A DNA stretch of 64,000 bases from an uncultured Clostridium sp. (GTDB lineage: Bacteria; Bacillota; Clostridia; TANB77; CAG-508): the NCBI GenBank assembly GCA_947368535.1, contig CANBHY010000002.1, positions 95,536-159,535 on the forward strand, given 5' to 3'. How positions within the stretch are numbered: the first letter of the stretch is position 1; the number at the start of each line of letters is the position of its first letter. The notes under the pieces were generated by a model. That model saw nothing but the letters and a program-made list of their open reading frames with translations. It searched no databases and was not told where the DNA came from. The translations under genes were made by a program, and so were the position numbers. Positions 22,563-52,198 of the stretch are shown here, in pieces.

Positions 22563-22681
22563 ATTAACCTCTTTATAAATAAATATTCGTATTTATTTAT
22601 TTTTATTCTAAAATAGTTGTTTTTTTTTATCAGGTATGTTATATTATGTCTATAGGACAAAAAGTAGCTTGGAGGTAATTT

Positions 22682-22936
22682 ATGAAACTTTCTACAGGAA
22701 TCATTAGACGTGTAGACGAATTAGGTAGAATTGTTATCCCTAAAGAAATGCGTCGAGAACTTAATATTGATCAAAAAGACCCAATAGAAATATCTATTGA
22801 GGGTCAATCAATTGTATTAAGAAAATATCAAAATAAATGTGTTTTTTGCGGAGCATTAAAACCTACTATTCGTTACAATGGTAAGCTAATATGTACACAT
22901 TGTTTAAAAGAGATTAACAAATCTCTAGAAACTTAA
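22682..22936 (+). CDS. AbrB/SpoVT-family DNA-binding protein with C-terminal Cys4 zinc-ribbon
   Basis: N-terminus MKLSTGIIRRVDELGRIVIPKEMRRELNI is the AbrB swapped-hairpin domain. C-terminus has CVFCG...CTHC (CxxC-x16-CxxC). GGAGG RBS. Confidence 0.7.
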   Translation: MKLSTGIIRRVDELGRIVIPKEMRRELNIDQKDPIEISIEGQSIVLRKYQNKCVFCGALKPTIRYNGKLICTHCLKEINKSLET

Positions 22937-25536: not shown

Positions 25537-28500
25537 ATGTCAGAATTATTACATGTAGGATTAGATGTAGGTTCAACAACAGTAAAAATCGTTGTAATGA
25601 ATGATAAACAAGAAACAATATATACAAACTATACTAGACACTTTTCAGATACAAAAAATACAATATGTAATGTCTTAGAACAACTATCAAAAGATTATCC
25701 AGATGCTACATATACAATGGCTCTTACTGGTTCTGGAGCCATGTCAGCAGCTAATTTTTTAAAAATACCATTTATACAAGAAGTTATATCTTGTAAACGA
25801 GCTGTTGAAAAATATTTGCCAGAAACTGATATCGTTATTGAATTAGGTGGCGAAGACGCTAAAATCATATATTTTGATAAATTTATTGAGCAAAGAATGA
25901 ACGGAACTTGCGCTGGTGGAACAGGTGCATTTTTAGATCAAATGGCATCATTATTAAATACCGATACAGCAGGACTTAACGAATTAGCAAAAAGCTATAA
26001 AGTTATTTATCCAATTGCATCAAGATGCGGTGTATTTGCTAAAACTGATGTACAACCACTTTTAAACGAAGGTTCTAGAAAAGAAGATATTGCTGCATCA
26101 ATTTTTCAAGCAGTTGTTAATCAAACTATCAGTGGTTTAGCTTGTGGCAGACCAATTAGAGGAAAGGTTGCTTTTCTTGGAGGACCACTTAGTTACCTTC
26201 CAGAGCTTAGAAAACGTTTTATAGAAACACTTGAATTAAAAGATAATGAAATTCTTATTCCTGAAAATGCTCATCTTTTAGTAGCTAAAGGAGCAGCTCT
26301 AGATTCATTAAATTCACCAGAATTTTCAAATTCTCAATTAAAAGAAAAAATTAAAGATTTAAAAGTTGCTAAAGATACGACTACTAAGCCATTAGATCCT
26401 CTTTTTTCTAACGAAGAAGAATATAAAAAATTCAAAAAAAGACATGACAAAGCAAAAATTAAAACAAAATCCCTAGAAAAATATACTGGTGACTGTTTTG
26501 TTGGAATTGATGCTGGTTCAACTACTACAAAATTAGTATTAATAGATACTGATAAAAATTTACTTTATTCTGACTATAAAAGCAACGAAGGCAATCCACT
26601 AAATAGCGTTATAAAAATGCTAAAATCTATGTATGAAAAATTACCTGAAACTGCTAGAATTAGATTTGCTGGAGTAACTGGCTATGGTGAAAAATTAATT
26701 CAAACAGCTTTAAATGTTGATTTAAATGAAATTGAAACAATAGCTCATTACACAGCAGCAAAAGAATTTATGCCAAATGTTACTAGTATCATTGATATTG
26801 GTGGACAAGATATGAAATACATAAAAATGAAAGAAGACGTTATAGACAATATAATGCTAAATGAAGCATGTTCTTCTGGATGTGGATCTTTCATTGAAAC
26901 TTTTGCTAAAAGTTTAGGTTTAACCATCGAAGAATTCGTAAAATCTGCTATTGATTCAAAGGCTCCTGTAGACTTAGGCTCAAGATGTACAGTATTTATG
27001 AACTCAAAAATAAAGCAAGCACAAAAAGAAGGTTACAGTGTTGGCGATATTTCTGCTGGTCTTTCTTTTTCAGTAGTAAAAAATGCTATTCAAAAAGTTA
27101 TGAAAGTCCGTGATATGAAAACTCTTGGAAAACACATTGTTGTACAAGGTGGAACATTCTACAATGATGCTGTTTTAAGAAGTTTTGAAATATTAGTAGG
27201 ACAAAATGTAATTAGACCAAATATATCTGGATTAATGGGTGCATACGGTGTTGCACTACTTTCTAAAGAACAATTTGAAGCAAATTTAGATATGGAATAT
27301 ACTTCAACATTACTAAAAACAGAAGAATTAGATAATCTAAACATAAAAACAACACAAGTACGTTGTGGAAAATGTGAAAATAATTGTCTATTAACCATAA
27401 ATAAATTTAATGATAGTAAATCATTTATATCTGGAAATCGCTGTGAAAAAGGAAGCGGTGGAATTACTGAAAACAAAAATCTACCAAACATGTATAAATA
27501 TAAATTTGAAAGATTATTTGGATATGAGCCATTATCTGAAGAAAAAGCCTTCAGAGGAACAATTGGAATACCTAGAGTTCTAAATATGTATGAAGATTAT
27601 CCATTTTGGTTTACCTTCCTAACAAACTTAGGATTTAGAGTAATTCTTTCAGAAAAAAGTACTAGAAAAACATATGAAAAAGGTATGGAATCAATGCCTT
27701 CGGAATCAGTATGTTACCCTGCTAAATTAAGTCATGGACATATAATGGATCTTCTAGAAAAAGGTATTAAAACAATATTCTATCCTTGTATTCCTTATTC
27801 AAGAAAAGAATATCAAAAAGCAAATAACCATTATAATTGTCCAATCGTAATATCATATTCAGAAGTACTTAAAAACAACGTAGAAGACCTTAAATCTGAA
27901 AATATTAAATTCATTAATACATTTTTACCTTTCGAGATAAAAAACCTCGTAAAAGTCATTTTAGAGCGTGATGAATTTAAAGAATATAATTTTACTAAAA
28001 AAGAATTAACTGAAGCAGCAAAAAAAGCAGAAGAAGAGTATCAAAATTTCAAAAATGATGTCGATAAAAAAGGTCAAGAAATACTAGATTATATGAACAA
28101 AAATGATTTACGAGGAATTGTTCTTGCAGGAAGACCATATCACGTAGATCCAGAAGTAAATCATGGAATTGATACATTAATAACTAGTTTAGGTCTATGT
28201 GTTCTTTCAGAAGACAGTATATCTAAAAAAACTGAAGCAAAAAGACCTATCAGAGTAGTTGATCAATGGGTATATCATGCCAGACTATATGCTGCAGCAG
28301 AATTTACAGGTCAACATGATAACTTAGAACTAATACAATTAAACTCTTTTGGATGTGGCGTTGATGCTGTAACAACAGACCAAGTAGAAGAAATATTAAA
28401 AAGTTATGAAAATATGTACACTCTAATCAAAATAGATGAAGTTAATAACTTAGGAGCAGTCAGAATACGTATTCGTTCACTACTAGCTAGTATGAATAAG

Positions 28501-29820
28501 AAAATAAAAGAAAAGTCAGAAAGACAAACTTGTGAAGATTGTAAGTCCGTAGGAGATTATGAACTTCACCCTATAGAGTTTACTAAAGAGATGAAAAAAG
28601 ACTATACTATTTTAATTCCTCAAATGGCCCCAATCCATTTTGAATTAATAGAAACAGCCGTTAAATCTTGTGGATATAATGTAGAGTTATTAAGAAATTG
28701 CACACCAAATACAGTTGAAACAGGATTGAAATATGTAAATAATGATGCATGCTATCCTTCAATTTTAACTACGGGTCAAATGATTGAAGCCTTAGAGTCA
28801 GGTAAATATGATCCAAATAAAACAGCCTTAATAATGTCTCAAACTGGTGGAGGTTGTAGAGCAACTAACTATATTGGATTTATAAGAAAAGCTCTAAAAG
28901 ACGCCGGTTTCTCACAAGTACCAGTTATATCATTTAATGTGGTTGGTATGGAAAAAATGTCTGGATTTAAAATTACAATTGGCTTAGCAGAAAGACTACT
29001 AAAAAGTGTTACCTATGGTGATTTACTTCAAAAATTATTAATGAAAAATCGCGCATACGAAATAAACAAAGGTGAAACAGAAAAATTATATGAAAAATGG
29101 TTACAAAAATGTAAACAATTAGTTAAAAAATCAAATAGTAAACAATTTAAACAAAGCATTTATGATATTGTAGAAGATTTTGAAAAAATAGAATTAGACA
29201 CAAGTATACCAAAACCTAAAGTTGGTATAGTTGGAGAAGTCTTAATAAAATATCATCCTTTTGGAAACAACTTTGTAGCCAACGTTTTAGAAAAAGAAGG
29301 TGCTGAAGTAATATTACCAGACTTTATGGGATTTATAAAATTTATAGCAACTCATAAAATAACATTTAATAAACTATTAAAAATAGATAAAACAAAAGCA
29401 ACCATCTTTAGAGCAGCTATAAAATTAATAGATATTTTTGAAAAAGATTTAAAAATTGCCTTATCAAAATCTAATAAAAACTACCTGCCACCTTGCGATA
29501 TCTGGCATTTAGAAAATAAAGTAAAAGATATTCTATCTATTGGAAATCAAACTGGTGAAGGTTGGTTCCTAACAGCAGAAATGGTAGAATATATAGAACA
29601 TGACATTCCTAATATCGTTTGTGTTCAACCATTTGCATGTCTTCCTAACCATATTGTTGGAAAAGGTGTAATAAAAACTATTAGAGAAACTTATCCAAAT
29701 GCTAATATTACACCAGTTGATTATGATCCTGGAGCAAGCGAATCAAACCAAACTAATCGATTAAAATTATTAATGACAGTTGCAAAAGATAATTTAAAAA
29801 CAGAACAAAATAAAAAATAA
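25537..29820 (+). CDS. acyl-CoA dehydratase activase-related protein (two BadF/BadG/BcrA/BcrD-type ATPase domains fused to an HgdB-like domain)
   Basis: Two ASKHA-type ATPase N-termini (LHVGLDVGSTTVKIV and CFVGIDAGSTTTKLVL), two Cys-rich segments, and a long C-terminal dehydratase-subunit-like region. 1427 aa. GGAG RBS. Confidence 0.75.
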   Translation: MSELLHVGLDVGSTTVKIVVMNDKQETIYTNYTRHFSDTKNTICNVLEQLSKDYPDATYTMALTGSGAMSAANFLKIPFIQEVISCKRAVEKYLPETDIVIELGGEDAKIIYFDKFIEQRMNGTCAGGTGAFLDQMASLLNTDTAGLNELAKSYKVIYPIASRCGVFAKTDVQPLLNEGSRKEDIAASIFQAVVNQTISGLACGRPIRGKVAFLGGPLSYLPELRKRFIETLELKDNEILIPENAHLLVAKGAALDSLNSPEFSNSQLKEKIKDLKVAKDTTTKPLDPLFSNEEEYKKFKKRHDKAKIKTKSLEKYTGDCFVGIDAGSTTTKLVLIDTDKNLLYSDYKSNEGNPLNSVIKMLKSMYEKLPETARIRFAGVTGYGEKLIQTALNVDLNEIETIAHYTAAKEFMPNVTSIIDIGGQDMKYIKMKEDVIDNIMLNEACSSGCGSFIETFAKSLGLTIEEFVKSAIDSKAPVDLGSRCTVFMNSKIKQAQKEGYSVGDISAGLSFSVVKNAIQKVMKVRDMKTLGKHIVVQGGTFYNDAVLRSFEILVGQNVIRPNISGLMGAYGVALLSKEQFEANLDMEYTSTLLKTEELDNLNIKTTQVRCGKCENNCLLTINKFNDSKSFISGNRCEKGSGGITENKNLPNMYKYKFERLFGYEPLSEEKAFRGTIGIPRVLNMYEDYPFWFTFLTNLGFRVILSEKSTRKTYEKGMESMPSESVCYPAKLSHGHIMDLLEKGIKTIFYPCIPYSRKEYQKANNHYNCPIVISYSEVLKNNVEDLKSENIKFINTFLPFEIKNLVKVILERDEFKEYNFTKKELTEAAKKAEEEYQNFKNDVDKKGQEILDYMNKNDLRGIVLAGRPYHVDPEVNHGIDTLITSLGLCVLSEDSISKKTEAKRPIRVVDQWVYHARLYAAAEFTGQHDNLELIQLNSFGCGVDAVTTDQVEEILKSYENMYTLIKIDEVNNLGAVRIRIRSLLASMNKKIKEKSERQTCEDCKSVGDYELHPIEFTKEMKKDYTILIPQMAPIHFELIETAVKSCGYNVELLRNCTPNTVETGLKYVNNDACYPSILTTGQMIEALESGKYDPNKTALIMSQTGGGCRATNYIGFIRKALKDAGFSQVPVISFNVVGMEKMSGFKITIGLAERLLKSVTYGDLLQKLLMKNRAYEINKGETEKLYEKWLQKCKQLVKKSNSKQFKQSIYDIVEDFEKIELDTSIPKPKVGIVGEVLIKYHPFGNNFVANVLEKEGAEVILPDFMGFIKFIATHKITFNKLLKIDKTKATIFRAAIKLIDIFEKDLKIALSKSNKNYLPPCDIWHLENKVKDILSIGNQTGEGWFLTAEMVEYIEHDIPNIVCVQPFACLPNHIVGKGVIKTIRETYPNANITPVDYDPGASESNQTNRLKLLMTVAKDNLKTEQNKK

Positions 29821-29825
29821 AAAAA

Positions 29826-29856
29826 ATGGATAACTTAGGTTATCCATTTTTTTTCG
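29826..29856 (+). terminator. rho-independent terminator of the activase gene
   Basis: TGGATAAC ttag GTTATCCA followed by TTTTTTTT. Confidence 0.75.
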
Positions 29857-31039
29857 CATTCTAGATAAAAATTTTTGTTTTCAAAATTATAAATATAAAT
29901 TTTATATAAATATCTTTAAAACATCAAGCATTTTTATAGAAAATCCCCTAAATATTTAAATATTACATCCACTTTTTCTATCCTATTTAACTCTTAATTT
30001 TATATATATAACAATTTTATCTTCAATCATTATATCATCTTTGTCTTTCACGTACTGTTTTTGTTTTGTTACATAAAAAATTGGCATCTAAAAAAAATTT
30101 TTCATTTTTCTTTTCAACATAAGTATTATTTTTAAAAGTTTAAAATAATTAATTTTTATCAGTGACTTTATATTAAAAAAAATAAAAAGCAAAATGTTTT
30201 AAAAAAAATACCCTAAATAATTCAATTTAAGAACATTCTTTTAATCTTTAAAAGCTAGTAAACATGGGAAATTTGTGCTAAAAAGATTATTTCAAAAATA
30301 TTTAAAATGTTGCAAACAAAAATCCTTGCAAAAATCGAATATTATATTTTAATGATAATTAACATTAACCTTTTGACAAAAATCAATTAAAACGGAAAAT
30401 AAAAGGTCAAATAATTTTATCTCAAAAAAATTTATGGACAACTCATCAAATCATAAAAATAGTGTAGCTTATATTTTTTTATCCTCTAAAATTTTTTCTC
30501 TATCATTTTTTATTAGTAATTATTTTCTTCAAAATTGCTTTTACTCTAAAAAATTTAATAAAAATAGCAATTATTACATAAAAAATATAAAATAATTATT
30601 ATAAAAATAATTAAATAATAAAAAATAATAATTATTCTTACTTTTTCGCATAAAAATACGATTTTTAAAGCATTTATTACAGTTAAATTCGAACATCTAT
30701 CAATATCAAATTTTCACTCTTTTAAAAACAAATTTCAGTAAAAAATAATTTTTTTCCTTAAATAGCAAAAAAAATTTTTTTCTCGATCAAAAATCCGAAA
30801 TTTTTTTAGTCAATATGATTTTCCCATATATCTCATCTAAATTACTAATTTAAAAAAAGCTATTATTCTAATCATTCATTTTAAAATTTATAAAATCTCA
30901 TCAAAAATATAAAAATATCACCATATACAAAATAGAAAAACTAAAATAATGCTTAATAAAATATAATCGCTATATTATAGGAAATAAGCAAACTAGCAGA
31001 TTTTATATAATTATGGATATGCTTCAAAAATAATATTAA

Positions 31040-31054
31040 TTGCCAAAAAAGTAG
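31040..31054 (-). repeat. 15-nt motif copy (reverse complement CTACTTTTTTGGCAA)
   Basis: Read directly from the sequence: TTGCCAAAAAAGTAG. Confidence 0.6.
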
Positions 31055-32458
31055 TTGTGCTCCTTTCTCTACATTCAGCATAGAAATGACAATTTAAAAT
31101 AGATAAATAAGTCATCTACTTTTTTAGAAATCTTGTTATTAAAATGAAATGACAAATCAAAAATGCACATTTTATAAAAATTTTATTGCTCTTATAAAAC
31201 AAATAGCATATTTTTATTTTTTAAAATAAAAACTCTACTTTTCATGAATTTTAAATTACAATAAAATAATATTTATAAAAAACGTATGTTTGTTTTTGAA
31301 TATTTTTTAAAAATATAGCCTTAAATTCTTCATTTATGTTATGTATACTTATTATTTTTTAAAAAATATCTAAAAATTCAACCTTAGTTATACCAAGCAT
31401 TTCAAATTTTATATACTTTAATATTCTTTCATCTACATTTATATTTACATAATTCTTAATAATATCAAATTACATCAATTTTTTTGATTACCCGATCTTC
31501 TCTATCATATACATATATTAAGTCAAAATATATTTTAAAAAAGACTAAAAATTAAAATTTTTATTTTTCTCTATGCATTTTTAAAAAATTTTAATTTTTA
31601 GACATACTTACTATTTTTTTAAATTATCCTACAAATTTAAAAATATTATAAAAAAGATAATTCTTAAAAAAATCACGTCAAAATTATCCATTTTTTAAAT
31701 TTATTCATTTTTATAATATTCAATCAAATATAGGATTTACAAGCTGTATACGTTTTTTATATAAATGTAATAATGAACTTTTCAAAATTGTTTGCAAAAA
31801 ATAAAATGAAAATCAGAGAAATATTTTTAGTTATTTTTGAGTCAATCAATAATAAAATTTTTTAATTAATTGGCAATTATTTTTATTTAAAATACATACC
31901 TATGACAAAAATAACTTAAAATATAATCCAATTAAAAAATACTTTAACTTTTTACCTTATTTTTAATTTTTATATCTATTTATTCAAAAATACTAAATAT
32001 TACACTAATATAGCATAATATTCAATTAATAATTTATTTATTTATTTTTTTAATGTAAACTTACTAAAAAAAGCTGCTTTTTTTGGTAAAAATCTATAAA
32101 ATTCATATATAGTATTACACTAAATATGATAATTTTTAAAAATTTTTCTAAAAATATACAAATAACACTACTCATTAATATATAAACCTACATTAAATTT
32201 TTTATATACCAAAACAATATATTTTTTAGTCATACGTTAATCAATCCTCTTTTTATGCTTCAAAAAATATTTTTTAATATTTTTTTCTCGTTTTCATTTT
32301 TAAAAATGCAAAATACATATTTTATTTATAAAAAAAAGTTTTAAAAAAATTATGCTTTTTTTCACTTTTAATGTCCAACTTCAATTCATTAAATATGCGG
32401 AAATAAAGATAATTCAAAAAACAGTATATTTTTATTATATATATTTTTTTTAATTTTA

Positions 32459-32473
32459 TTGTCAAAAAAGAAG
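32459..32473 (-). repeat. 15-nt motif copy (reverse complement CTTCTTTTTTGACAA)
   Basis: TTGTCAAAAAAGAAG. Confidence 0.6.
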
Positions 32474-34053
32474 TTTCAAATTATAACTGAATTAAAACTT
32501 TAATAGACAAAAAAAGAAGCATCTCATTTCAGTTACAAAACTAATTTCTATTCTTATTAAAGTAAATGACAAATAAAAACTGTAAAAAAGCAGTAATATT
32601 TTTTAATATATCTTTTTATCATTTTAAGAATGAAAATCGAAATTTGAAGCATAATTTAAAAATTACAAATTTTTTTCCAAAAAATAAATATAAAAAAATA
32701 AAATTTATTTTTTTATATTTATTTTTATTAAAATCTATTTTCCTCATTTTTGCTCTATTTTTTTATTTTTGAAAAATAATATCTTTAAGCTATCTATTAT
32801 TTTTAATTTGTTTCGCTTACCGCTCTAAGAGATAGTTAGCTAATCTTCAATTTTTAATCTCTCATGCAAATATATTTTTTAGACTAATTGCCAATATTTC
32901 CTTAAAATACTCTTTTTATAAAATATTACACTCTATTTTGACCAATTTATTTTCTTTTTATTATATAAAGATTTATAAAAATTTATAAAAATTTATTTAT
33001 ACAAAATCACCAATTTTTATAAACTAATTATTATTATTTAGGCAAAATATATTTTTTATCAATTTTTATTCTTTATTCTATAAATTTTATATATTTATAA
33101 ATTTGATAAAAATTTTTTATAATTCTTTACATAAAAATAATAATTTAAATTTTAATAAATCAAAGGAAAAAAAGATCAAAAATTAATTATTTTAAATTTT
33201 TTTAAGCTTAGGGTAAAACCGCAAAATCTTCGGAATATCAACCAAAAGAGCTATTTAATATATTTGTAAAAATTCTCCAAAAAAAATTCTTTGCAAAAAA
33301 ATAAAAATAAAAATAAAGCTAAAAAATATAAAACATAGTGACAATTAATTTATATTCCTCTCATATAAGATGTCAAACATTTTTATAAATTATAATTAAT
33401 GTAGACAAAGTATTTATATTTATTTATTAATAAAATCATCTTAGCTAAAAATTTTAACCCTATTTCATTTTTATAATTCAGATCATATAATTTCATATCT
33501 AACATAAATTTAATGGTAATAAAATGAAATATTACAAAAAAAAACTATTAAAATTATATTTTCAATTTAATTTGAATTAAAATATATACAAAAAGTCAAA
33601 AAATGATATTTTCAAAAAAATATAAAAAATAAAATTAATTAAATATTACAAAAAAAATATTATTTTTAAATAAATATTACCATTTTTTTAGTATCAAAAA
33701 GATGTTTAAATATACTACTTAAAAATTTATAAATTATATACAAATCATCACCTATTTTATGTAACCTAAAATTAATATTATTAGCAAAACATTTTAATAA
33801 ATTTTTATTTAATTTTTTTGTGTCCAAATAATCAACACAAATTTTTAAATATAGTTTTAAAAATTTTAAAAATAACTTTTTTTAATATTACAATTAGATT
33901 TAAAAAATGTACACATTTAAAAAAAATTTATTGAAAGACAAAAAATAGTAAAAATCAGTAATATTATTTTTTTTTGTTTTCTGTGAAAGTTGGGATATAA
34001 GTGATAAAGCCGTTTTAATAAATAAAATGAAAAATTTACTTTATTTTATAGCT

Positions 34054-34068
34054 TGTCAAAAAAGGAGA
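34054..34068 (-). repeat. 15-nt motif copy (reverse complement CTCCTTTTTTGACAA)
   Basis: TTGTCAAAAAAGGAG. Confidence 0.6.
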
Positions 34069-35129
34069 TTACTAATATAAGAAAAATGTATACTAATTGG
34101 ACAAAAAAACATTTAAAAATTTAAAAGAAAATATATTAATTAAAATAATTATTCAATTGAACAGACAAAATCTTTCTAAAAAAAGATTAAATATTCCCCA
34201 AAATGCTTTTCAGTATCGAATATATGTTCTCCACTCTTTAAAGTTAAATAAAATAGTAGTTTTATTTAACTTTAAATCAAAAAAAATTAATAATTCTAAT
34301 GTTACAATACACAGTTTTTTAAAAAATATTTTTTTCTATTTTTTTAATTATTTATCTATTTTTTTTAATTTTTTTTAATTATTTTTAATTATTTTTAATT
34401 ATTTAATTTATTATTATAAATAATTATTAATTTATAATAAAATATCTAATAATTATTTATTTAAATATAAAAAAAATCATAGCTAGATATCCTAAATAAA
34501 TTTTTTAAACTATATGCATGAAACGCATGTGAAAATTTTTAGCCCTTATTTTCGTTTTTAATCAATTTTATTAAAAAAAAGTACCAATAATATTAATATT
34601 ATTAATAGATATTTACGTATTATAATGAAAAATTGATAAAAAAAAGAACCCAAATCATAAATTAATTGGATTCTACAATAAAATAAAGCTCATTTATGTG
34701 TAAATACATAAATCATCTCTCATAATTATCAATACTTTAATTATATTTTATAAATTAACTGTATAACAATTGCTTATTAAAATATAATTATGTAAAAATA
34801 ATTATTGATTAATAATCATTTTTTAAACTATGAAAAATAATTAAATAATTAAAATAAAATATTATTGATTAATTTAATAAATATTTAACATTTAATTCTA
34901 TAAAAATTAAATCATATTTATTAAATTTTTATAGAATTATTCTAAAATTATTAGTCAATAATAATGTTTTATTTGTATCCATTTTCCTGTTTCAACACAC
35001 TATACATATTTCACATTTTTTGTCTATATAATATAAACTTATGCAAAAAGTATTGTTTTTTAAGAAAATTTTATATGAATTTGATCATTTTTTTGTCTGA
35101 TATTAAAATTTTTTTATTAATTATTATCT

Positions 35130-35144
35130 CTACTTTTTTGACAA
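35130..35144 (+). repeat. 15-nt motif copy CTACTTTTTTGACAA
   Basis: Exact. Preceded 38 nt upstream by TTTTTTTGTCTGA. Confidence 0.65.
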
Positions 35145-36139
35145 ATATTAAAAGTTCAGCTTTGTGATTATTATCTATATTTATTAATATATCTGCATTA
35201 TATAATATTCGTACAAATTTATTGTTATAGATTTTTAAATTTAAAACTACATTTTCTTTTAATTATTTTCCACTATTTTATAAAATTTCCTAAAAATGAA
35301 TTTTTTTTCTTATAATCTTATATAAATTTGTATTCAAAAAACAATATTTTTTATTATCATCATTTAGTATTAATAACTTAGTAAATAATTGTATTTTTTT
35401 TACAAAAATTATAATAAATTATCCACAGATAATATCAAACAAGTTTTCTCTTATCAAAAATATTTTTTCTAATTATTTCAAATATATTTTTATTTTTTTA
35501 TATTTTTTATTAATTATTTTTAATTTATTTTTATTTTTTATTTATTTATTTTTATTTATTTATTTTTATTTATTTATTCCATGCACAAATTTATATATTT
35601 TTTACTTCAAAAATTAAAACCCTGGTTCCAAATTAATTCCAATTTATATATATTAATCTTTCTAAAATTTTTTTACATTATATCTCTTTTTATAGTCCGG
35701 ATAAAAAATAAAATTCCAAATTTAAATATTATTTTTTTCATACCTCTCTCTTACTATAGTATCACATACAAATTTTAATTCATATATTACTAATCATTTT
35801 AAATATTTTAATCTCTCAATTTATATATTTTTAAATTAATTATTTATATTTTTTCAATAATTATTAAAAAAATAATTAAAAATAATAAAAAAATAAAAAT
35901 AATTATTTTATTTATGAAAATTTTTCGTAATATTAAATTTTATATTATCAAAATATGTTTTTATTGATTTTATTGATCAGATCTATAAATTTTAAAATTA
36001 TGTACTAAATTATTATTTTATATAGTTTTTTTGTCTAGTTGGCAGCTGAATAAACATTTTGAGCATACAATTAATCATTTAATGTCAAAAAATGCTGTTT
36101 TTTTGTCTAGCTACGAAATAATTTTAATATTTCACAATT

Positions 36140-36154
36140 CTACTTTTTTGACAA
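36140..36154 (+). repeat. 15-nt motif copy CTACTTTTTTGACAA
   Basis: Exact. Preceded by TTTTTTTGTCTAG at 36095 and 36026, and by an inverted TGTCAAAAAAT at 36074. Confidence 0.65.
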
Positions 36155-37083
36155 AAGTTTTTACTGTTTTTTTATTATTGATGCATGTATTCATTGATAT
36201 ATAGATGTTTGACGTCATATATGTTTAAAATAGATTTTGTTTTTTGTAAAATTTTCAAATTTTCCTTCCTAATATATTTTATATTAAAAAATTTTTTTCA
36301 CTTTTATAGCTTTTAATCCTAAAAAAAAGAAAATTTTTTGAAAATTCCTTCCAAAAAATTCAATTTCATATTTTCACAAATTTCTTTACTTTCGCCATTA
36401 AAAAAACTATTATTCTAACCTTTAAGAATAATCAAATAATTAATAAAAGTATTACAAAAATAAAAAGATATTTTTACTAATTATTTTTATTTTTTTATTA
36501 TTTTTCTAAAATAAATTAATTAATTCTATTTTTTTATTTAATTTTTTTATTTAATTAAAATATATTTTCACTCATTTAATAAATTGCACTTTGATTTAAT
36601 ACCTTTTAAAAATTTTTTTATAAATAAGTTTCATAATTATAGAAATAGTAGATCAAGTTGAACTATACTTTATCAATATTTATATTTTTCTATATATTTT
36701 TCCATTTCTTTAAAACATTGAACTTATTTTTATTATAATATTTTTTATATAATTATAAAATTAAACTTATATAATAAAATATTTAATATTATTTTTCCAT
36801 AATTAATTAAAATATTATTTAAAAATAAAATAATAAAATAAAATTATTAATCTTTTATTTTATATTTATATAATATTTATTTATTATTTATGATACTGTA
36901 ATTTTCTCACTTCTTTTCAATAAAAATACACTATTTATTATCTATAACATTTCGGTTTAAAAAACTAGTATTTTTGTCTTTTAAATTATATATTGTTCTC
37001 ATTGTAACTTTTTTATATTATATTTCAATAAAAATATAATATTTTCTTGTCTTATATTTATTTTTTTTAACCATATTTGTTAT

Positions 37084-37098
37084 CTACTTTTTTGACAA
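37084..37098 (+). repeat. 15-nt motif copy CTACTTTTTTGACAA
   Basis: Exact. Confidence 0.65.
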
Positions 37099-38099
37099 TT
37101 TTTATTCACATCACATTAAGTGTTCACCATATTTCCTTTGAAATTTGTGAGTTTCATGAATTTTATCTTAGAAAATTTATATATTTTTCAAATTCTATTA
37201 TTATATTCATCATATTTTAATTTATAAAAATTCTTAAAAACTTAATATTCCGTTTTAAAAAACAATTTTTAGAAAATTTACTAAGAATTTTTTAATAAAA
37301 TTTTACTATCTAAATTTCTCCAATTTTAAGGCCTTTTTTATATCAAAATTTATAACAATATAAATTATCTTTTTACTATATTAATATTTCATTTTTTTAA
37401 ATTTAATATTTTTATTTTTCATATTTTTTTAATATTTTTCTATTTATTATTTATATTTATTCTTTATTTTATAATTAATTTAAATTAATTATTTATTTAT
37501 TAAAAATTGTATATACTTTTGTATACATAATTATTTTTAAGATCAAAAATTGATCTTTTTTTTAATATTTTCTTATATGAAAATTTATAAAAGAAGATTT
37601 ATTTATACTTTTTTTATAATATTGGAATAAAACTTCTAAAATTTTAAAAATATCTTTTTATTTTTAAACTAAATTTTTATAAAAAAAGCAAAATTATATT
37701 TAGATTTTTAATAATACAAAATAAATTTTACTATTAATAAAAAAAATATCTAAAAAAATAATAATAAATTATAAAAAATTAAAATATTTTTTGTAATAAA
37801 TTTTAATTTTTATTTTCATCAATAAATTAAATTTTGAATATATTTTTATAATATTATTGGAATAAATTTCATAATTTTATGCAACTTTGAATACTCAATA
37901 ACATAACTTTTTTTACTTTAGAAGTTTTCTTCTGGCTAAATTTTCATTCACACTTTTTCACAATTCTTTCTACAATACTTCAGAGTATTTTGTCTTATGT
38001 ATATTTATTCTTCTATAACAGAACTTATATAATTCAATTTTTTATATTTTTTAGTTCATTTTTTGTCTAATATAAAATATTTTTGTTTATTTCTTAAAT

Positions 38100-38114
38100 C
38101 TACTTTTTTGACAA
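38100..38114 (+). repeat. 15-nt motif copy CTACTTTTTTGACAA
   Basis: Exact. Preceded 36 nt upstream by TTTTTTGTCTAA. A possible -10 TATTAT lies 17 nt after the embedded TTGACA. Confidence 0.65.
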
Positions 38115-39273
38115 ATATTTTTTAATATCCTATTATATATATTCGATATAAGTCCCATATTTAAAGTATTTTGAACTATTACTATACTTTTTAATTACTA
38201 CCTTTTCTTAATTTTTATTAAATAATTTATAATTTTTAAAATTATAAATTATACACTTAATCAAATTCGATTTATTTTTAAAGAAATTTAAAACACATTA
38301 TTCAAATTTTCTAAAAACTTTCTATCTTTTATTAAAAATCTCATATGTATATGTTTTCAAAACACATTCGTACATATGTTCTTAATATTTTTTAGTCAAA
38401 TTGATATGTTATAGTATATTCTTATTAATTACTTTTTTTAATTAAATATAACAACATATTTTGATATTTATTTTAATACATAAAAACTAATAGATTATAT
38501 TTTTATTTTTCTATATTTTATTATTTATTTATTATTATTTTTTTTATATTTATCTTTATTTTAAATATATTTTTTATTTTTTAAAAAAATATATTTTTTT
38601 ATTCCCTCAACTAATATAAAATTTTTCATTTTTTCCATATTATTCTTTATTTTAAATTTATAAATCAAAACTTTAAAATTTTTTCCTAAAATTTTTAAAT
38701 AAAGATACTTATTTCTTACAAATTTAATTTGATATTTTCTAATCTTTTTTCATAATCAGCAATTTTAAAAAAATAATTAAAGAATTTTTTTTTATTTTTT
38801 TAATAAATCCATTTTTTTATATTAACATTCAATTCATTTTTTATAAAATATAAATAATTATTCCTAATTTTTAATATATTTTTTTGTTTTTTTATTTTTA
38901 TATCAATTTATAAAATATTTATTAATTTAAATACTTTTTAAAAAATTAATTACTACGCATTTATTTTCTTAGTTTCAAATTTTGTACTACTCATTCTTCT
39001 TAAATTTGACCAGTTATATATATATGAATTTATATAAGATTTACTTGTCATTCTGTCAATATTTCTCTAACTATAATTAATACTTTATTTATGTTAGTCG
39101 ACAAATACCAAACATATTTTCTTAACTACTTCTATAAAATTTATTTACCCTCATTCTATTTTTATACTTATTTCCCTTTTAAATATATTACTTTTTCTTA
39201 CTTTAGCCATTTTATTAGTTACTTACTCTAATTTTCTTGACTAAAAAATTTATATTTTTTAATTTTCTCTAAA

Positions 39274-39288
39274 CTACTTTTTTGTCAA
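39274..39288 (+). repeat. 15-nt motif copy CTACTTTTTTGTCAA (variant)
   Basis: One mismatch. Preceded by TTCTTGACTAAAAAA. Confidence 0.55.
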
Positions 39289-41080
39289 ACATTTTTTAAA
39301 TAGTATCTTTAATAATATTCTATAACTCCCTATTTATAAAGATTTCATAAGTATACTCAATATAATCATGATCCATTTTTTCTATTTTAAGCATGCTTTT
39401 ACATTAATTTTAAAATTATAAATTATAAAAACTCTCTTTTTAAAAAAAATCTACTAATACAACTGCAAAGAAATTTCTAATCTAACTTTAAACATATTTC
39501 TAATCTCAAATTTTTTTTTGTCGTTTTTTCATTTATTCGAATTAAAAACGCAACCTAGTCAAATTGATAATAATTTATTCTTATCTTATTCATTTTTTAT
39601 TTCATTACTGCGAACAAATGTATTCGCATACATCTTTGATTAAAAATTTTTTTCTTCAGATAAAACTATTCTCTTTTATAAATATTCTGTATAGTTTTTA
39701 TTTAAAAACATTTTTTATTATTTATTTTATTTTTTGATATTTATTTCCTTATTTAAGTTTTTCAACGCATTATTTTCGTTTTTTTTTTGATTTTTATAAA
39801 AATTTCAAGTAATTATATTCCAAATTTCTATCAGTAAATAGTCTAAAATAATAATTTATTATATTTTTTACTGTTTATTTTATTATTTGATTATAAAAAC
39901 ATTTATAAATAAAAAATAAAAATATTTATTTTTTATTTTTTTAAATGTAATATTAAATGTATTTCATTTATTATTTATATTTTATATTAATAAATATCAT
40001 ATTGATCTATTTAATATGTTTTTTTATATTAATAAAAAAACATTGTCTAAAACATTAAAAATATCTTTTTTTAATGCTCATTTTTTATATTTTATTGTCT
40101 ATTATCTTAATATTTTTCCATTTTTTTCTTTCTACTTATTTGTCAATGAATTTTTGCCATTAAAAAACGCATTTAATATAAATCCTCTAATATCAACACT
40201 TTAATACTTATTTATATATTTTTTCTTAATATTTTTATACCAAACTTATTTATTCATTTAATCTTTCATTAATTTTATTAAAAATTTTCTTTTTTAAGCC
40301 TCTAAAAAAATATAAAAAAATTTACTAATCTACTTCTCAAATTAATCAATTTTTTTTATGCTATTTTTCACATACTATTATTTAATTATTCTTTTTTGAT
40401 ATTATAATTTCTAATTTTCATGTAATATTTTCCATATCTTTTATCTTTATTTTTTAATTAAATTTTATAATTACAAAATAAATTTCATTTATTTATTTTA
40501 TTTTTTTATATTTTTTAAATATTGATATATCAGCAAAAAATTAATTTAAAATTATTTATTAATTATTTTTTCGATATTTTTTTAATTAATTAATATTATT
40601 AAAATATTTACTTTTCAATATGTAATATACCTCTTATTTTCCTTTATTTAAAAGCATTCTACGATGTAACAATTAACATTTAAAAATTTATTTTAATTTT
40701 ATTTTTTTAATTATTCATGAAATTATTAAAAAATATTTTTTAATAATTTTTAAAATTAACTTTTCTATTTTTAAAATTCACATTTTATACACAAAAAAAT
40801 ATAAAATAATTTTAAATAAAAAATTTATTTTATATTTTAATATTATTTCCTATTTTTTTTATATTTAGTTTTTTAATATCAATTTACGATAAATATATAT
40901 CATTTTCCAAGCCTCTAAAATCGTCATATTTTGATTTTCAATATAAACAAATAATATATGTCATATTAGTATATATTTATATTATTTTTGGATTCTCGTA
41001 GCTTCTATATTATTTTTTAAAATTAATACATAATAAACAAAATATATAAAAAAAAAGATAGTACATTCTTGTACTATCTT

Positions 41081-41172
41081 TGGCGGAGATTGAGGGATTT
41101 GAACCCTCGCGGCCCTAAACGAACCCTAACAGTTTAGCAAACTGTCCCCTTCAGCCACTTGGGTAAATCTCC
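41081..41172 (-). tRNA. tRNA-Ser (anticodon GCU)
   Basis: The reverse complement reads GGAGATTTACCCAAGTGGCTGAAGGGGACAGTTTGCTAAACTGTTAGGG...GGGTTCAAATCCCTCAATCTCCGCCA. Anticodon loop is TT-GCT-AA. Long variable arm, T-loop GGTTCAAATCC, encoded CCA. Confidence 0.85.
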
Positions 41173-41211
41173 GTATAATTATAAAGCTAGATAGTATTTC
41201 ATATCTAGCAT

Positions 41212-41303
<92 letters not shown>

Positions 41304-43488: not shown

Positions 43489-43639
43489 AATAATCCCTCC
43501 AATCTTTCTTTATTATAATATAAAAATTATAATCCTCTGTCAATAAAATTTATAATTATTTTACCCATATTTTTATTTTTTTAATATTTTTATCCTCAGA
43601 TTTTTAAATTTTTTAAAATATTTATACACAAAAATGTGA

Positions 43640-43700
43640 AAATGATAAAAAATTATCCACAGATTATCAACATTTTATCAACAGGTTATCTGTGGAACAT
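43640..43700. promoter_or_regulatory. DnaA-box cluster between parA and rsmG
   Basis: Perfect TTATCCACA at 43653-43661. Two TTATCAACA boxes (one mismatch each) at 43664 and 43675. TTATCTGTGGA at 43686. Confidence 0.55.
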
Positions 43701-51856: not shown

Positions 51857-52198
51857 ATTTGATAAAACTTATATATCAATTTTATCGAATTTTTTATAAA
51901 AAAAGGTGTTTTACGAACAAAAGTATTATCAAAAAAATTCAATTTGTTCCTACGGAAGAGCAAGAAAAGATATCAACAGATTAGTGTTTAAAACGTGTTA
52001 AATTTCTGTTTATAATCAACATATGCACATAAAAAGTTTAATAATGTGGATAAATTTATTTTTTATTCACAGGTTTATAAACATCAAATTTTCTGCGGAT
52101 ATAAACAATAAACAGACTTTTCCACAGAATCCACACCACCTAATACTAATACTACTATATATATTTATATTATTTTATAAAAAAAGGAGTTTGAAAAA
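51857..52198. promoter_or_regulatory. oriC: dnaA-dnaN intergenic DnaA-box cluster plus AT-rich DNA-unwinding element
   Basis: TGTGGATAA (perfect box, reverse orientation) at 52045-52053. TTATTCACA at 52063. TTTTCCACA at 52117. AATCCACAC at 52128. Then a pure A/T tract (CTATATATATTTATATTATTTTATAAAAAAA) immediately before dnaN. Confidence 0.7.

What the first reader, a model, noticed from the sequence alone, without database searches (positions are those of the whole stretch)
31040..39288. Dispersed 15-nt motif CTNCTTTTTTGNCAA: 8 copies at ~1-1.6 kb spacing, orientation flips at ~34.4 kb
Four exact copies of CTACTTTTTTGACAA occur on the plus strand, at 35130, 36140, 37084 and 38100. A one-mismatch copy is at 39274. 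Spacings are about 1010, 944, 1016 and 1174 bp. Three reverse-complement copies occur at 31040 (G variant), 32459 and 34054, with spacings of about 1.42 and 1.6 kb. All left-hand copies point left and all right-hand copies point right, so the array diverges from a point between 34069 and 35130. An exact 15-mer four times in 11 kb is far beyond chance, even in AT-rich DNA, because of its G and C positions. The motif contains TTGACA, but a proper -10 at 17 nt follows only the 38100 copy. It is therefore more likely a protein-binding or recombination site than a uniform promoter. The pattern resembles origin or centromere-like arrays (archaeal ORB-type or plasmid iteron-type arrangements flanking an unwinding element), or the ends of a repeatedly inserted small element.
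Basis: seen in the sequence. Interest (0 to 1): 0.8.

Follow-up and report, generated by a model that had tools for sequence, protein, structure and literature searches.

The report
Gene-free AT-rich module array near oriC
Next to the replication origin of an uncultured gut Clostridia bacterium lies 11 kb with no genes, made of nine 1-1.6 kb units that have drifted apart except for a short promoter-like DNA module kept by selection; its function is unknown and nothing like it appears to be described.

Summary
CTACTTTTTTGACAA occurs 9 times at up to 2 mismatches (0.78 expected). All copies lie in an ORF-free 11.2 kb block (29,855-41,053; 14.5% GC against about 27% in the flanks) between the convergent tRNA-Ser/parAB operon and an activase gene, about 9 kb from dnaA/oriC.

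The 15-mer is the middle box of a tripartite DNA module of about 170 nt: T-tract-TTGTCT, about 45 nt, CTNCTTTTTTGACAA, about 55 nt, TTATTTCC. Everything between modules evolves at a near-neutral rate, at a composition near the genome's mutational equilibrium (four-fold sites 6.8% GC). The boxes are conserved between strains and species.

Relatives carry the same module at the same site in 1, 2, at least 5, 7 or more, or at least 8 copies, in spacers from about 1 kb to 11 kb. In the other lineages whose arrays could be read the copies all point one way, so the orientation flip is lineage-specific.

The block is not oriC, parS, an iteron origin, a known or structured RNA, a set of small ORFs, or phage, plasmid or transposon DNA.

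Best reading (about 0.4): an amplified array of promoter/operator-like protein-docking modules that drive or regulate non-coding transcription. Rivals are an architectural or titration array, and a selfish macrosatellite.

The parts
29855..41053 (.). Gene-free, ultra-AT-rich block (11.2 kb, 14.5% GC) between two convergent transcription units
   Evidence: No ORF longer than 93 aa. GC is 13-17% against ~27% in the flanks and 14.5% overall. Independent assemblies of this species and its sister species call almost no genes there.
35130..35144 (+). Box C (the finding's 15-mer), exact; unit pointing toward tRNA/parB/oriC
36140..36154 (+). Box C, exact
37084..37098 (+). Box C, exact
38100..38114 (+). 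Box C, exact
39274..39288 (+). Box C variant CTACTTTTTTGTCAA; its box B is TTGAC, so the two cores are swapped
40132..40146 (+). Degenerate ninth box C, CTACTTATTTGTCAA (2 mismatches), nearest the tRNA
34053..34067 (-). Box C (CTCC variant) of a complete tripartite module pointing away from oriC
   Evidence: The profile HMM hits 33977-34119 with E = 1e-13.
32459..32473 (-). Box C (CTTC variant) of a complete module
   Evidence: HMM hit 32384-32522, E = 9e-10.
31040..31054 (-). Box C (GGCAA variant) of a complete module; the same variant sits at the orthologous position in the sister species
   Evidence: HMM hit 30964-31109, E = 1e-11.
35089..35098 (+). Box B TTTTTTGTCT. It starts 41 nt upstream of each box C; other copies are at 36099, 37043, 38059, 39233 and 40091 (+) and 31087, 32505 and 34099 (-)
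   Evidence: (family D1). TTTTTTGTCT occurs 8 times in the window against 1.17 expected, 7 of them in the block.
35016..35025 (+). Box A TTTTTTGTCT, 72-73 nt upstream of box B; other copies at 36027, 36970, 37986 and 40039 (+) and 31150, 32567 and 34163 (-)
32399..32406 (-). Box D TTATTTCC, at +67 to +74 of the three complete modules (also 30980-30987 and 33993-34000). This is the element shared by every lineage of the clade.
34068..35015 (.). Centre of the divergent arrangement; contains pure A/T microsatellites and a short island conserved between species (CTGTGKATTGTAACAT, about 34290-34330)
29819..29854 (-). Hairpin terminator with A- and T-runs on both sides at the left edge of the block, just after the activase gene
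41054..41081 (-). Terminator of the tRNA-Ser pair; right edge of the block
41081..41303 (-). tRNA-Ser(GCU) and tRNA-Ser(UGA), last genes of the rpmH...parA-parB-DUF4446 gene string; conserved right flank in all relatives
25537..29820 (+). 1,427-aa BcrAD/BadFG + DUF2229 CoA-enzyme activase gene, convergent with the tRNAs; conserved left flank in all relatives

Best explanation
The 15-mer is the middle box of a tripartite DNA module of about 170 nt: [T-tract-TTGTC(T/A)], about 45 nt, [CTNC-T6-GACAA, core TTGWCAA], about 55-60 nt, [..GCTTATTTCC]. In the window there is often a further TTTTTGTCT box 62-73 nt upstream.

Ancestrally (inferred), one such module sat in the AT-rich spacer between the convergent tRNA-Ser/parAB gene string and the activase gene. 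In several lineages the module, together with about 1 kb of spacer, was amplified by tandem duplication to 2, at least 5, 7 or more, at least 8, or 9 copies. That history explains why copies within an arm share one orientation. In the common ancestor of the window species and its sister species, the segment holding the three complete modules was inverted, which produced the 'divergent' picture.

The DNA between modules is unconstrained and has drifted toward the genome's mutational-equilibrium composition. The boxes themselves are held by purifying selection.

Most likely mechanism (inferred, not shown): each module is a promoter/operator-like docking site. The T-tract + TTGTCT/TTGACA boxes resemble sigma-A -35 elements with upstream T-rich tracts. 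Their fixed spacing suggests a stereospecific complex of RNA polymerase and/or a dedicated DNA-binding protein. That complex would start or control non-coding transcription into the adjacent unconstrained DNA. What matters would then be the act of binding or transcription, or the number of sites, and not any RNA or protein product.
For: Shown:
- The motif is enriched and confined to the block.
- The composite element is absent elsewhere. The genome-collection scan gave only scattered single hits plus one in the sister species' block. In metagenomes it forms arrays only in these blocks. Viral contigs gave zero hits.
- A profile HMM of the module searched against 538 kb gave every hit with E < 1e-3 inside the blocks of this clade and none in gene-rich flanks or unrelated loci.
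- Purifying selection on the boxes: 13 of 480 columns variable with no gaps, against 562 of 8,982 plus 261 gap columns in the rest of the block (p = 8e-4).
- Between species, the block is no more similar than a reversed-sequence control except at the boxes.
- The GGCAA variant is retained at the orthologous distal copy in both species. That points to inheritance under selection, not homogenisation.
- Fixed spacings: B-C is 31-32 nt in the window and 32-34 nt in the sister species. Box B to TTATTTCC is about 108-118 nt in L091, L088, L082, L052 and the window.
- The spacers are neutral: GC4 is 6.8%, the spacers 8-12%, other intergenic DNA 22%. They are 4-9% polymorphic with many indels.
- Amplification series at one syntenic site: L091 has 1 module in about 1 kb, L057 has 2 in 1.2 kb, L082 has 2 in 2.7 kb, L088 at least 5, L085 7 or more in 7.1 kb with some units 99% identical, L046 at least 8, the window 9.

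Promoter-like character:
- An exact TTGACA or TTGTCT hexamer follows the T-tracts.
- In relative L057, 'TTTTTTATTGTCT-17 nt-TATACT' has the layout of a canonical sigma-A promoter in front of the AbrB-family gene.
- -10-like hexamers are modestly enriched 17-19 nt after box B (9 of 17 against a mean of 3.9) and 31-34 nt after box C in one arm (6 of 11 against 2.6).
Against: - No transcript has been seen; there are no expression data.
- A -10 at the canonical distance from box C's TTGACA is at background (4 of 17). The other -10 enrichments are weak and were found post hoc.
- No intrinsic terminators lie inside the block.
- No RNA is conserved or stably folded. Shuffle z-scores are about 0, RNAalifold predicts 0 pairs, and Rfam finds nothing.
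- Overall promoter-like site density equals that of shuffles (152 against 155).
- The binding protein is unknown.
- L085 keeps only TTATTTCC and has lost the TTGWC boxes, so those boxes are dispensable in at least one lineage.
- The third base of box C is A in all six window copies of one arm and T in all four sister copies. This indicates some concerted evolution, which could mimic selection in that arm.
Confidence: 0.4

Rival explanations
1. Architectural or titration array. The modules are docking sites for a DNA-binding protein (a nucleoid, segregation or sporulation regulator), and transcription is not the point. The block would organise or anchor the origin-proximal chromosome, buffer supercoiling between two convergent units, or titrate a regulator in step with origin copy number. 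The block's length and AT content would matter, not its sequence, much as in satellite DNA.
For: - Conservation is limited to short DNA boxes with fixed spacing.
- The box C core TTGWCAA is a 7-bp palindrome, and the box B core is its half-site.
- The location is constant, about 9 kb from dnaA and directly after parA-parB-DUF4446-tRNA.
- No canonical parS lies anywhere in the 64 kb origin window or in relatives' origin loci.
- An apparently unconstrained block persists and expands independently in genomes of only about 1.8 Mb. This is unexpected under the usual bacterial deletion bias (established knowledge).
- There is no sign of a conserved product.
Against: - No candidate protein is known.
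- The motif is unrelated to parS, and ParB is 81-100% identical in lineages with very different box content.
- Copy number ranges from 1 to 9 and the TTGWC boxes are lost in L085, so no fixed architecture is required.
- Kilobase spacing of sites is not a feature of any known bacterial centromere or titration locus.
Confidence: 0.25
2. A functionless, self-amplifying macrosatellite. Slippage-prone AT-rich spacer DNA expands by unequal crossing-over. The boxes look conserved only because of short-tract gene conversion, mutational coldness, or hitch-hiking with one ancestral functional site.
For: - Units 99% identical in L085 show ongoing duplication.
- Microsatellite tracts and indels are frequent.
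- Block composition is near mutational equilibrium.
- The species-specific third base of box C (all A against all T) in one arm suggests concerted evolution.
- Copy number varies freely among lineages.
Against: - Orthologous modules keep their individual variants across species (GGCAA distal copy; CTTC/GTTC middle copy), so they were not homogenised, yet the boxes and their spacings are preserved while the flanks are saturated.
- The module is conserved as a single copy in L091, where no conversion partner exists.
- G/C-containing boxes should decay fastest under this genome's AT-biased mutation, but they are the least variable part.
Confidence: 0.2
3. An array of small non-coding RNA genes (or type I toxin-antitoxin-like loci), each unit having its own promoter.
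For: - There is one promoter-like module per unit.
- GC is higher (16-21%) from -200 to +300 around the motif than further downstream (8-12%).
- Tandem sRNA families with individual promoters exist in Firmicutes (established knowledge, for example Listeria LhrC1-5).
Against: - No sequence is conserved downstream of the modules, between paralogues or between species.
- The +50 to +250 region is the most polymorphic part of the unit.
- No fold signal, no consensus structure, no Rfam hit even at E <= 5, no conserved small ORF and no internal terminators.
Confidence: 0.05
4. Recombination sites or remnants of mobile DNA: cassette or shufflon sites, ends of a small inserted element, or an island accreted at tRNA-Ser.
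For: - The block abuts the 3' end of a tRNA gene, a classic integration site.
- Repeats occur in both orientations.
- An inversion evidently happened once in the ancestry.
Against: - No integrase, transposase or any other ORF.
- No terminal inverted repeats and no stable hairpins.
- No similarity to phages, plasmids or viral contigs.
- Four strains of the window species and four assemblies of its sister are collinear with identical copy numbers.
- A short version of the spacer carrying the module is present in all relatives, so it was not an insertion.
Confidence: 0.05
5. A second replication origin or an origin-accessory element: iteron- or ORB-like repeats flanking a DNA-unwinding element.
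For: - Direct repeats lie next to extremely AT-rich, easily melted tracts.
- The block is close to oriC.
- One perfect DnaA box lies at 35419.
Against: - The GC skew stays negative across the block and switches only at about 50 kb beside dnaA.
- DnaA boxes cluster at 43.6 kb and 52.05 kb, with only 3 of 39 near-matches in the block.
- No initiator gene is present.
- Repeats are 45-73 nt apart within modules and about 1 kb apart between modules, unlike iterons.
- The divergent layout is not conserved in other lineages.
Confidence: 0.03

Closest known systems
Sigma-A promoters with upstream operator or activator sites (for example Spo0A-dependent sporulation promoters in Firmicutes)
   Same: TTGACA/TTGTCT hexamers preceded by T-rich tracts. 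Several phased boxes spread over about 170 nt. The organism is a spore-former. Box C read on the other strand (TTTGTCAAA) is one mismatch from the 0A-box core TGTCGAA (comparison from memory).
   Different: No -10 at the canonical distance. No downstream gene or conserved RNA. The boxes are not tandem 0A boxes. The module occurs only in this one locus.
Modular intergenic repeat elements (pneumococcal BOX A-B-C, Neisseria Correia, enterobacterial REP/BIME, ERIC)
   Same: Short non-coding modules built from sub-boxes, located in intergenic DNA. BIMEs typically lie between convergent genes, and some carry promoters or protein-binding sites (established knowledge).
   Different: Those elements are dispersed genome-wide in tens to hundreds of copies and are usually palindromic. 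This module is confined to one syntenic locus, is not hairpin-forming, and is amplified together with kilobase-scale neutral spacers.
Plasmid or chromosomal iteron and centromere repeat arrays (F sopC, R1 parC, iteron origins; B. subtilis RacA ram sites)
   Same: Repeated protein-docking sites near replication and segregation genes; adjacent AT-rich DNA.
   Different: No rep or par gene specific to the repeats, no tight 11-43 bp periodicity, no parS-like palindrome, and about 1 kb of unconstrained DNA between sites.
Tandem sRNA gene families (Listeria LhrC1-5, Vibrio Qrr)
   Same: Several units in a row, each with its own regulated promoter.
   Different: Here nothing downstream of the promoter-like module is conserved or structured.
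E. coli 'promoter islands' and xenogeneic AT-rich DNA bound by nucleoid silencers
   Same: Very AT-rich DNA dense in promoter-like hexamers (152 sites in 12 kb).
   Different: That density is exactly what the composition predicts (155 in shuffles). The block is vertically inherited at a fixed site and is not horizontally acquired.
Eukaryotic satellite/centromeric DNA (analogy only)
   Same: Rapidly evolving tandem units with one short conserved protein-binding box per unit, and copy-number turnover between lineages.
   Different: Bacterial, only 1-9 units, and no evidence of a segregation role.

Membership tests
Chromosomal origin (oriC) / DnaA-box cluster | Cluster of DnaA boxes (TTATCCACA) next to a DNA-unwinding element | tested here: not met
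   only 3 of 39 matches with up to 1 mismatch fall in the 11.2 kb block (one exact, at 35419). The real clusters are at 43590-43683 and 52045-52126.
Chromosomal origin (oriC) / DnaA-box cluster | GC-skew polarity switch at the site | tested here: not met
   the skew is negative throughout 30-42 kb and switches at about 50-52 kb beside dnaA (50501-51856).
ParB-parS centromere | 16-bp palindrome TGTTNCACGTGAAACA | tested here: not met
   no match at up to 3 mismatches anywhere in the window; none at up to 3 mismatches in the window or in six of seven related origin loci (L085 has one 3-mismatch match outside its block). The only near-match in the window's block is a 4-mismatch hit at 36206.
Iteron-type plasmid or phage origin | Tight tandem 17-22 bp direct repeats bound by a Rep protein encoded next to them | tested here: not met
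   The boxes are 45 and 62-73 nt apart and modules about 1 kb apart. No ORF longer than 93 aa in the block. No plasmid or phage similarity.
Canonical sigma-70/sigma-A promoter | -35 hexamer close to TTGACA | tested here: met
   Exact TTGACA in 6 of 9 window copies; TTGTCT in box B.
Canonical sigma-70/sigma-A promoter | -10 hexamer (TAnnnT) 16-18 nt downstream of the -35 | tested here: not met
   4 of 17 units after box C, which is background. After box B the enrichment at 17-19 nt (9 of 17 against 3.9) is weak and inconclusive.
Canonical sigma-70/sigma-A promoter | Transcription start in vivo | not testable with these tools
   No expression data are available.
Known RNA family (Rfam 15) | Covariance-model match | tested here: not met
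   (gathering threshold) finds only the two tRNAs. (E <= 5) finds nothing inside the block. One search finds nothing in the relatives' blocks.
Structured non-coding RNA (novel) | Thermodynamic stability above shuffles and/or covarying base pairs | tested here: not met
   mean z between -0.6 and +0.2 on both strands; 0 consensus pairs in 16 islands from 5 lineages; the B/C pairing has 1 compensatory event, and 26-54 of 500 shuffles do as well.
Small-ORF arrays (type I toxins, leader peptides) | Small ORF conserved between units or species | tested here: not met
   169 ATG-ORFs of at least 12 aa; the only similarities are low-complexity translations and one recent duplicate inside L055.
Insertion sequence / MITE / genomic island at a tRNA | Terminal inverted repeats or att direct repeats, a recombinase gene, presence/absence polymorphism | tested here: not met
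   No ORFs. The inverted repeats found are low-complexity only. Strains are collinear. The spacer with its module is present in all relatives.
CRISPR array | 25-40 nt repeats separated by 25-40 nt unique spacers | tested here: not met
   The repeat period is about 1,000-1,600 nt.
Dispersed intergenic repeat elements (BOX, REP/BIME, Correia) | Many copies dispersed through the genome | tested here: not met
   Composite and HMM searches find the module only in this syntenic block. Caveat: the complete genome of the window organism itself could not be scanned.

The most novel reading that the evidence does not exclude
The block is a bacterial counterpart of satellite DNA. It would be a positionally conserved, fast-evolving array next to parAB/oriC, selected for its length and AT content. 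Its one conserved module per unit would dock a protein that organises, anchors or segregates the origin region, or titrates a cell-cycle or sporulation regulator in step with origin copy number. This would occur in a clade that shows no canonical parS near its origin.
Probability: 0.15. Interest if true: 0.85.

Novelty: new variant of a known kind. Interest (0 to 1): 0.55.

Why it matters
Bacterial genomes, especially small ones of about 1.8 Mb, are thought to purge useless DNA. A gene-free block making up about 0.6% of the genome stands out. It is fixed in position beside the origin and partition genes across a whole clade of gut Clostridia, it has expanded independently from about 1 kb to 11 kb, and it keeps only a module of about 170 nt under selection.

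If the modules are promoters, this is a case of selection on non-coding transcription or on site number, not on a product. If they are architectural, it would be a new kind of origin-proximal organising element in spore-formers that lack RacA-type anchors, in a clade where no canonical parS was found in the origin-proximal DNA examined.

There is also a practical consequence. The block breaks short-read assemblies: many contigs end just after DUF4446. It is therefore under-represented in MAG catalogues.

Tried and rejected
- **Canonical promoter array.** Rejected for box C: the -10 at 16-18 nt is at background.
- **oriC or a second origin.** Rejected.
- **parS centromere.** Rejected.
- **Known RNA or decayed tRNA copies.** I noticed a resemblance of 'AAATCC..' and 'ATTTCCCAAG' to parts of tRNA-Ser, but permissive Rfam scans found nothing.
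- **Hairpin between box B (TTGTC) and box C (GACAA).** 92% of cells pair, but the pairs are almost invariant, there is one compensatory event, the result is no better than shuffles, and there is no stability signal. Left as inconclusive.
- **Structured RNA in the ancestral island.** Zero consensus pairs.
- **Small peptides or type I toxins.** None conserved.
- **Phage, plasmid or viral origin.** No similarity.
- **Recent tandem duplication in the window.** Units are 43% identical by column and only the boxes align.
- **Gene decay (pseudogene desert).** Relatives with short spacers have no extra genes there, so the block grew by expansion and not by gene loss.
- **Spo0A or AbrB link through the AbrB-family gene leader** (TGTCTATAGGACAAAAAGTAG at about 22,640-22,665). 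It gives only a weak HMM hit (E = 0.046) and is not conserved in L057. Kept as a lead only.
- **Sigma-H, sigma-F, sigma-B or dif-like readings of TTATTTCC/GGAAATAA.** These were compared from memory with consensus sequences, and none fitted consistently.
- **Literature.** No paper contains the motif, and none describes such a block.
- **Organism name.** Two protein searches returned no informative names. The only label is 'uncultured Clostridia bacterium' for the sister-species MAG.

Full report
**Observation.**
- CTACTTTTTTGACAA occurs exactly at 35130, 36140, 37084 and 38100 (+ strand).
- One-mismatch copies are at 39274 (+), 31040, 32459 and 34053 (-).
- That is nine matches against 0.78 +/- 0.77 in dinucleotide shuffles.
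- The 12-nt core CTTTTTTGACAA at up to 1 mismatch gives 8 copies in the block and one elsewhere (22357, inside a gene).

**Setting.**
- All copies lie in a stretch with no ORF longer than 93 aa. Its GC content is 13-17%, against about 27% on either side.
- The stretch is bounded by a hairpin terminator at 29819-29854 and by the terminator of two tRNA-Ser genes at 41054-41081.
- On the left is a convergent 1,427-aa BcrAD/BadFG-DUF2229 activase gene.
- On the right, the Pfam-identified genes are DUF4446, parB, parA, rsmG, mnmG and mnmE. Further right, dnaA lies at 50501, where the GC skew changes sign.
- The block is therefore about 9 kb from oriC of a low-GC spore-former (a Germane-domain protein is encoded nearby).
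- The six + strand copies point toward oriC, head-on to replication. The three - strand copies point away.

**The block is real and belongs to a clade.**
- The same protein-coding neighbourhood, followed by about 10 kb with almost no called genes, is found in independent NCBI, JGI and ENA assemblies of the same species. These are 97-99.8% identical across the whole locus.
- Sister species at 89-90% DUF4446 identity have the same block at 13-18% GC. It carries four CTTCTTTTTTGACAA copies about 0.8-1.15 kb apart pointing to parB, and three more degenerate copies pointing away.
- One of these MAGs is labelled 'uncultured Clostridia bacterium MGBC126950'.
- Many short-read contigs stop just after DUF4446.

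**What is conserved.**
- Aligning the nine units end to end gives 43% column identity. Only a segment around the motif aligns.
- That segment is composite:
  - Box B (TTTTTTGTCT) starts 41 nt upstream of the 15-mer (box C) in every copy. The intervening 31-32 nt are fixed in length in the window (32-34 in the sister species).
  - Box A (TTTTTGTCT) lies a further 72-73 nt upstream in four oriC-pointing copies, and 62-64 nt upstream in the others.
  - In the three away-pointing copies a fourth element, TTATTTCC, sits at exactly +67 to +74.
- Information content peaks only at these boxes.

**Selection.**
- In a four-strain alignment the block has 4-9% variable columns plus many indels. The coding flanks have 0.4-3%.
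- The box B to box C segments have 13 of 480 variable columns and no gaps, against 562 of 8,982 plus 261 gap columns elsewhere (Fisher p = 8e-4).
- Between species, BLAST similarity across the blocks is no better than against the reversed sequence (top score 66 bits real against 74 bits control). The box segments are the only exception.
- Orthologous away-pointing units keep their individual variants in both species. For example the most distal copy is ...TTTTTTGGCAA in both. This argues for inheritance under purifying selection and against homogenisation.
- In contrast, the third base of box C is A in all six oriC-pointing copies here and T in all four in the sister species. Some concerted evolution or independent amplification has therefore acted in that arm.

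**The rest is unconstrained.**
- Four-fold degenerate sites of 15 flanking genes are 6.8% GC (GC3 12.8%).
- The inter-module DNA is 8-12% GC, the whole block 14.5%, and other intergenic DNA in the window 22%.
- The C>G skew is the same on the + strand in both arms. It follows replication and not module orientation.
- Pure A/T microsatellites recur once per unit and carry most of the indels.
- The +50 to +250 region downstream of the motif is the most polymorphic part of a unit.

**Evolutionary series at one syntenic site (tRNA-Ser end to activase 3' end).**

| Locus | Relatedness to window | Spacer length | Modules |
|---|---|---|---|
| L091 | ParB 84% | about 1 kb | exactly one: TTTTTTGTCT, 108 nt, TCTAAACCGCTTATTTCCTATG |
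| L057 | DUF4446 47% | 1.2 kb | two ~0.5 kb repeats |
| L082 | human gut; DUF4446 65% | 2.7 kb | two ~1.07 kb units, same orientation |
| L088-L090 | another mouse-gut species; ParB 91% | at least 5.3 kb | at least 5 units of 0.93-1.0 kb, all pointing to the tRNA |
| L085 | circular 1.8 Mb long-read contig; ParB 81% | 7.1 kb at 0-12% GC | units of ~900-950 nt, some 99% identical; no TTGWC boxes but TTATTTCC at unit spacing |

- Each L088 unit reads AAAATCGTTTTTAA..TTTTTTGTCAC, about 35 nt, TTTTCYTGACTA, about 55 nt, TCTCTAAAAYGCTTATTTCCTGGG.
- A profile HMM built from modules of five lineages and searched against 538 kb (the window, clade loci with their gene-rich flanks, and 40 unrelated loci) gave every hit with E < 1e-3 inside these blocks.
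  - The window's three away-pointing copies are complete modules (E = 1e-9 to 1e-13).
  - The oriC-pointing copies match only the box B to box C half (E = 1e-3 to 0.03).
- Complete modules point to the tRNA in the other lineages but away from it here and in the sister species. The 'divergent' layout is therefore best explained by one ancestral inversion and is not a conserved design.

**Specificity.**
- The composite pattern TTGTC-N32-CTNCTTTTTTGACAA, scanned across one genome per species (185,579 species), gave 41 single hits. Forty were scattered and one lay in the sister species' block.
- TTTTTGTC-N31-35-CTNCTTTTTTGACAA in the metagenome collection gave arrays only in these blocks (L061, L064/L073, L067, L070). 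All other hits were single and lay in 28-65% GC DNA.
- Viral contigs gave zero hits.
- A 281-nt island has no relative in phage or plasmid collections.

**What it is not.**
- *Not oriC.* DnaA boxes cluster at 43590-43683 and 52045-52126, and the skew does not switch in the block.
- *Not parS.* No match at up to 3 mismatches in 64 kb, and none at up to 3 in six of seven related origin loci.
- *Not a known RNA*.
- *Not a stable or covarying RNA or ssDNA structure.* Shuffle z-scores are about 0 on both strands, and there are 0 consensus pairs in 16 islands. The TTGTC/GACAA complementarity of boxes B and C is nearly invariant, with one compensatory case (copy 39274: TTGAC/GTCAA), and is no better than shuffles.
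- *Not small ORFs*.
- *Not an iteron origin, CRISPR array, IS/MITE or island.* There are no ORFs and no terminal repeats, strains are collinear, and the spacer is present in all relatives.

**Promoter question.**
- Box C contains an exact TTGACA, but a TAnnnT hexamer at 16-18 nt follows in only 4 of 17 units, which is background.
- Enrichments exist 31-34 nt after TTGACA in the oriC-pointing arm (6 of 11 against a mean of 2.6). They also exist 17-19 nt after box B's TTGTCT (9 of 17 against 3.9), which would place a start site at box C. Both were found post hoc and are modest.
- In L057, 'TTTTTTATTGTCT-17 nt-TATACT' has the layout of a canonical sigma-A promoter in front of the AbrB-family gene. 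A T-tract plus TTGTCT is thus a plausible -35 in this clade (inference from sequence).
- Promoter-like site density in the block equals that of shuffles, and no intrinsic terminators lie inside it.

**Interpretation.**
- *Shown:* a locus-specific tripartite DNA module under purifying selection, amplified from 1 to 9 copies with unconstrained AT-rich DNA in between, at a fixed position beside the origin-proximal parAB/tRNA-Ser gene string.
- *Inferred:* the module is a protein-docking site. I rank the readings as follows:
  1. Promoter/operator-like modules that recruit RNA polymerase and/or a dedicated regulator and drive or control non-coding transcription (about 0.4).
  2. An architectural or titration array in which transcription is irrelevant (about 0.25).
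  3. A functionless self-amplifying macrosatellite whose boxes are kept by conversion or hitch-hiking (about 0.2).
  4. sRNA genes, recombination sites or an accessory origin (0.05 or less each).
The origin/ORB/iteron and inserted-element analogies are not supported.

**Novelty and limits.**
- I found no description of the motif or of such a block.
- It fails the defining tests of every family I considered. It most resembles modular intergenic repeat elements and promoter/operator modules, but it is restricted to one locus and amplified with kilobase spacers. Hence the rating 'new variant of a known kind'. A more exotic satellite-like or centromere-like reading is not excluded.
- Limits: no expression or binding data. 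The complete genome of the window organism could not be scanned. The organism is uncultured and unnamed. The sigma-factor and regulator comparisons rest on consensus sequences recalled from memory.

Noticed in passing
window 1-64000; also L001, L046, L052, L055, L057, L082, L085: There is no canonical parS (TGTTNCACGTGAAACA) at up to 3 mismatches anywhere in 64 kb centred on oriC, including inside parB. Related origin loci have none better than 3-4 mismatches. This is unusual for Firmicutes, where parS sites normally cluster near the origin.
   Followed up: partly
window 43590-43683 and 52045-52126: There are two clusters of DnaA boxes. One lies in the rsmG-parA intergenic region (5 boxes in about 95 nt, all on the + strand). 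The other lies just downstream of dnaA. The rpmH-dnaA side was not examined in detail.
   Followed up: no
window 22576-22670 (leader/promoter of the AbrB-family gene 22682-22936, +): The leader reads TATGTCTATAGGACAAAAAGTAGC. That is a box-B-like TGTCTAT followed by a near match to the reverse complement of box C. It is the only non-block hit of the module HMM in the window (E = 0.046), and it is not conserved in L057. It is a possible hint at a shared regulator (Spo0A or AbrB), or it may be chance.
   Followed up: partly
window 38369-38381: CGTACATATGTTC inside the block resembles a Firmicute LexA (Cheo) box, CGAACATATGTTCG, with one half-site mismatch. The comparison is from memory.
   Followed up: no
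window 35419-35427: A single perfect DnaA box (TTATCCACA) lies inside the block, about 290 nt downstream of the 35130 copy. It is isolated.
   Followed up: no
window 35130-40146 versus L046 11778-14755: The third base of box C is A in all six oriC-pointing copies of the window species and T in all four copies of the sister species. The away-pointing orthologues keep individual variants. This is a sign of concerted evolution or independent amplification in one arm only.
   Followed up: partly
window 30254-30389 (-): A weak module-HMM hit (E = 0.026) lies near the left edge. It may be a decayed fourth away-pointing module.
   Followed up: no
L047, L048, L052-L056, L058-L060, L078-L081, L083, L084, L086, L087, L092: Most short-read contigs carrying this neighbourhood end within 0-3 kb after DUF4446. 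The AT-rich block systematically breaks assemblies and will be missing from many MAGs.
   Followed up: no
L091 8340-9054 and 10856-11336: In this relative, rsmG and DUF4446 are each called as two ORFs. These may be frameshifts or pseudogenes, or assembly errors. L092 shows the same split calls.
   Followed up: no
L057 18967-19078: A hairpin of about 110 nt between the TP_methylase gene and the AbrB-family gene scores 74 bits (E = 6.5e-14, below the gathering score) against a plant microRNA precursor model (MIR9486). It is presumably just a long convergent-gene terminator hairpin.
   Followed up: no
window 40905-40940; L052, L055, L082, L088: 'CCTCTAAAATCGTCATATTTTGATTTTC', next to the tRNA terminator, is conserved across lineages. 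It matches the 'AAAATCGTTTTTAA' that precedes box 1 in L088 units, so the module may extend further upstream than the three boxes.
   Followed up: partly
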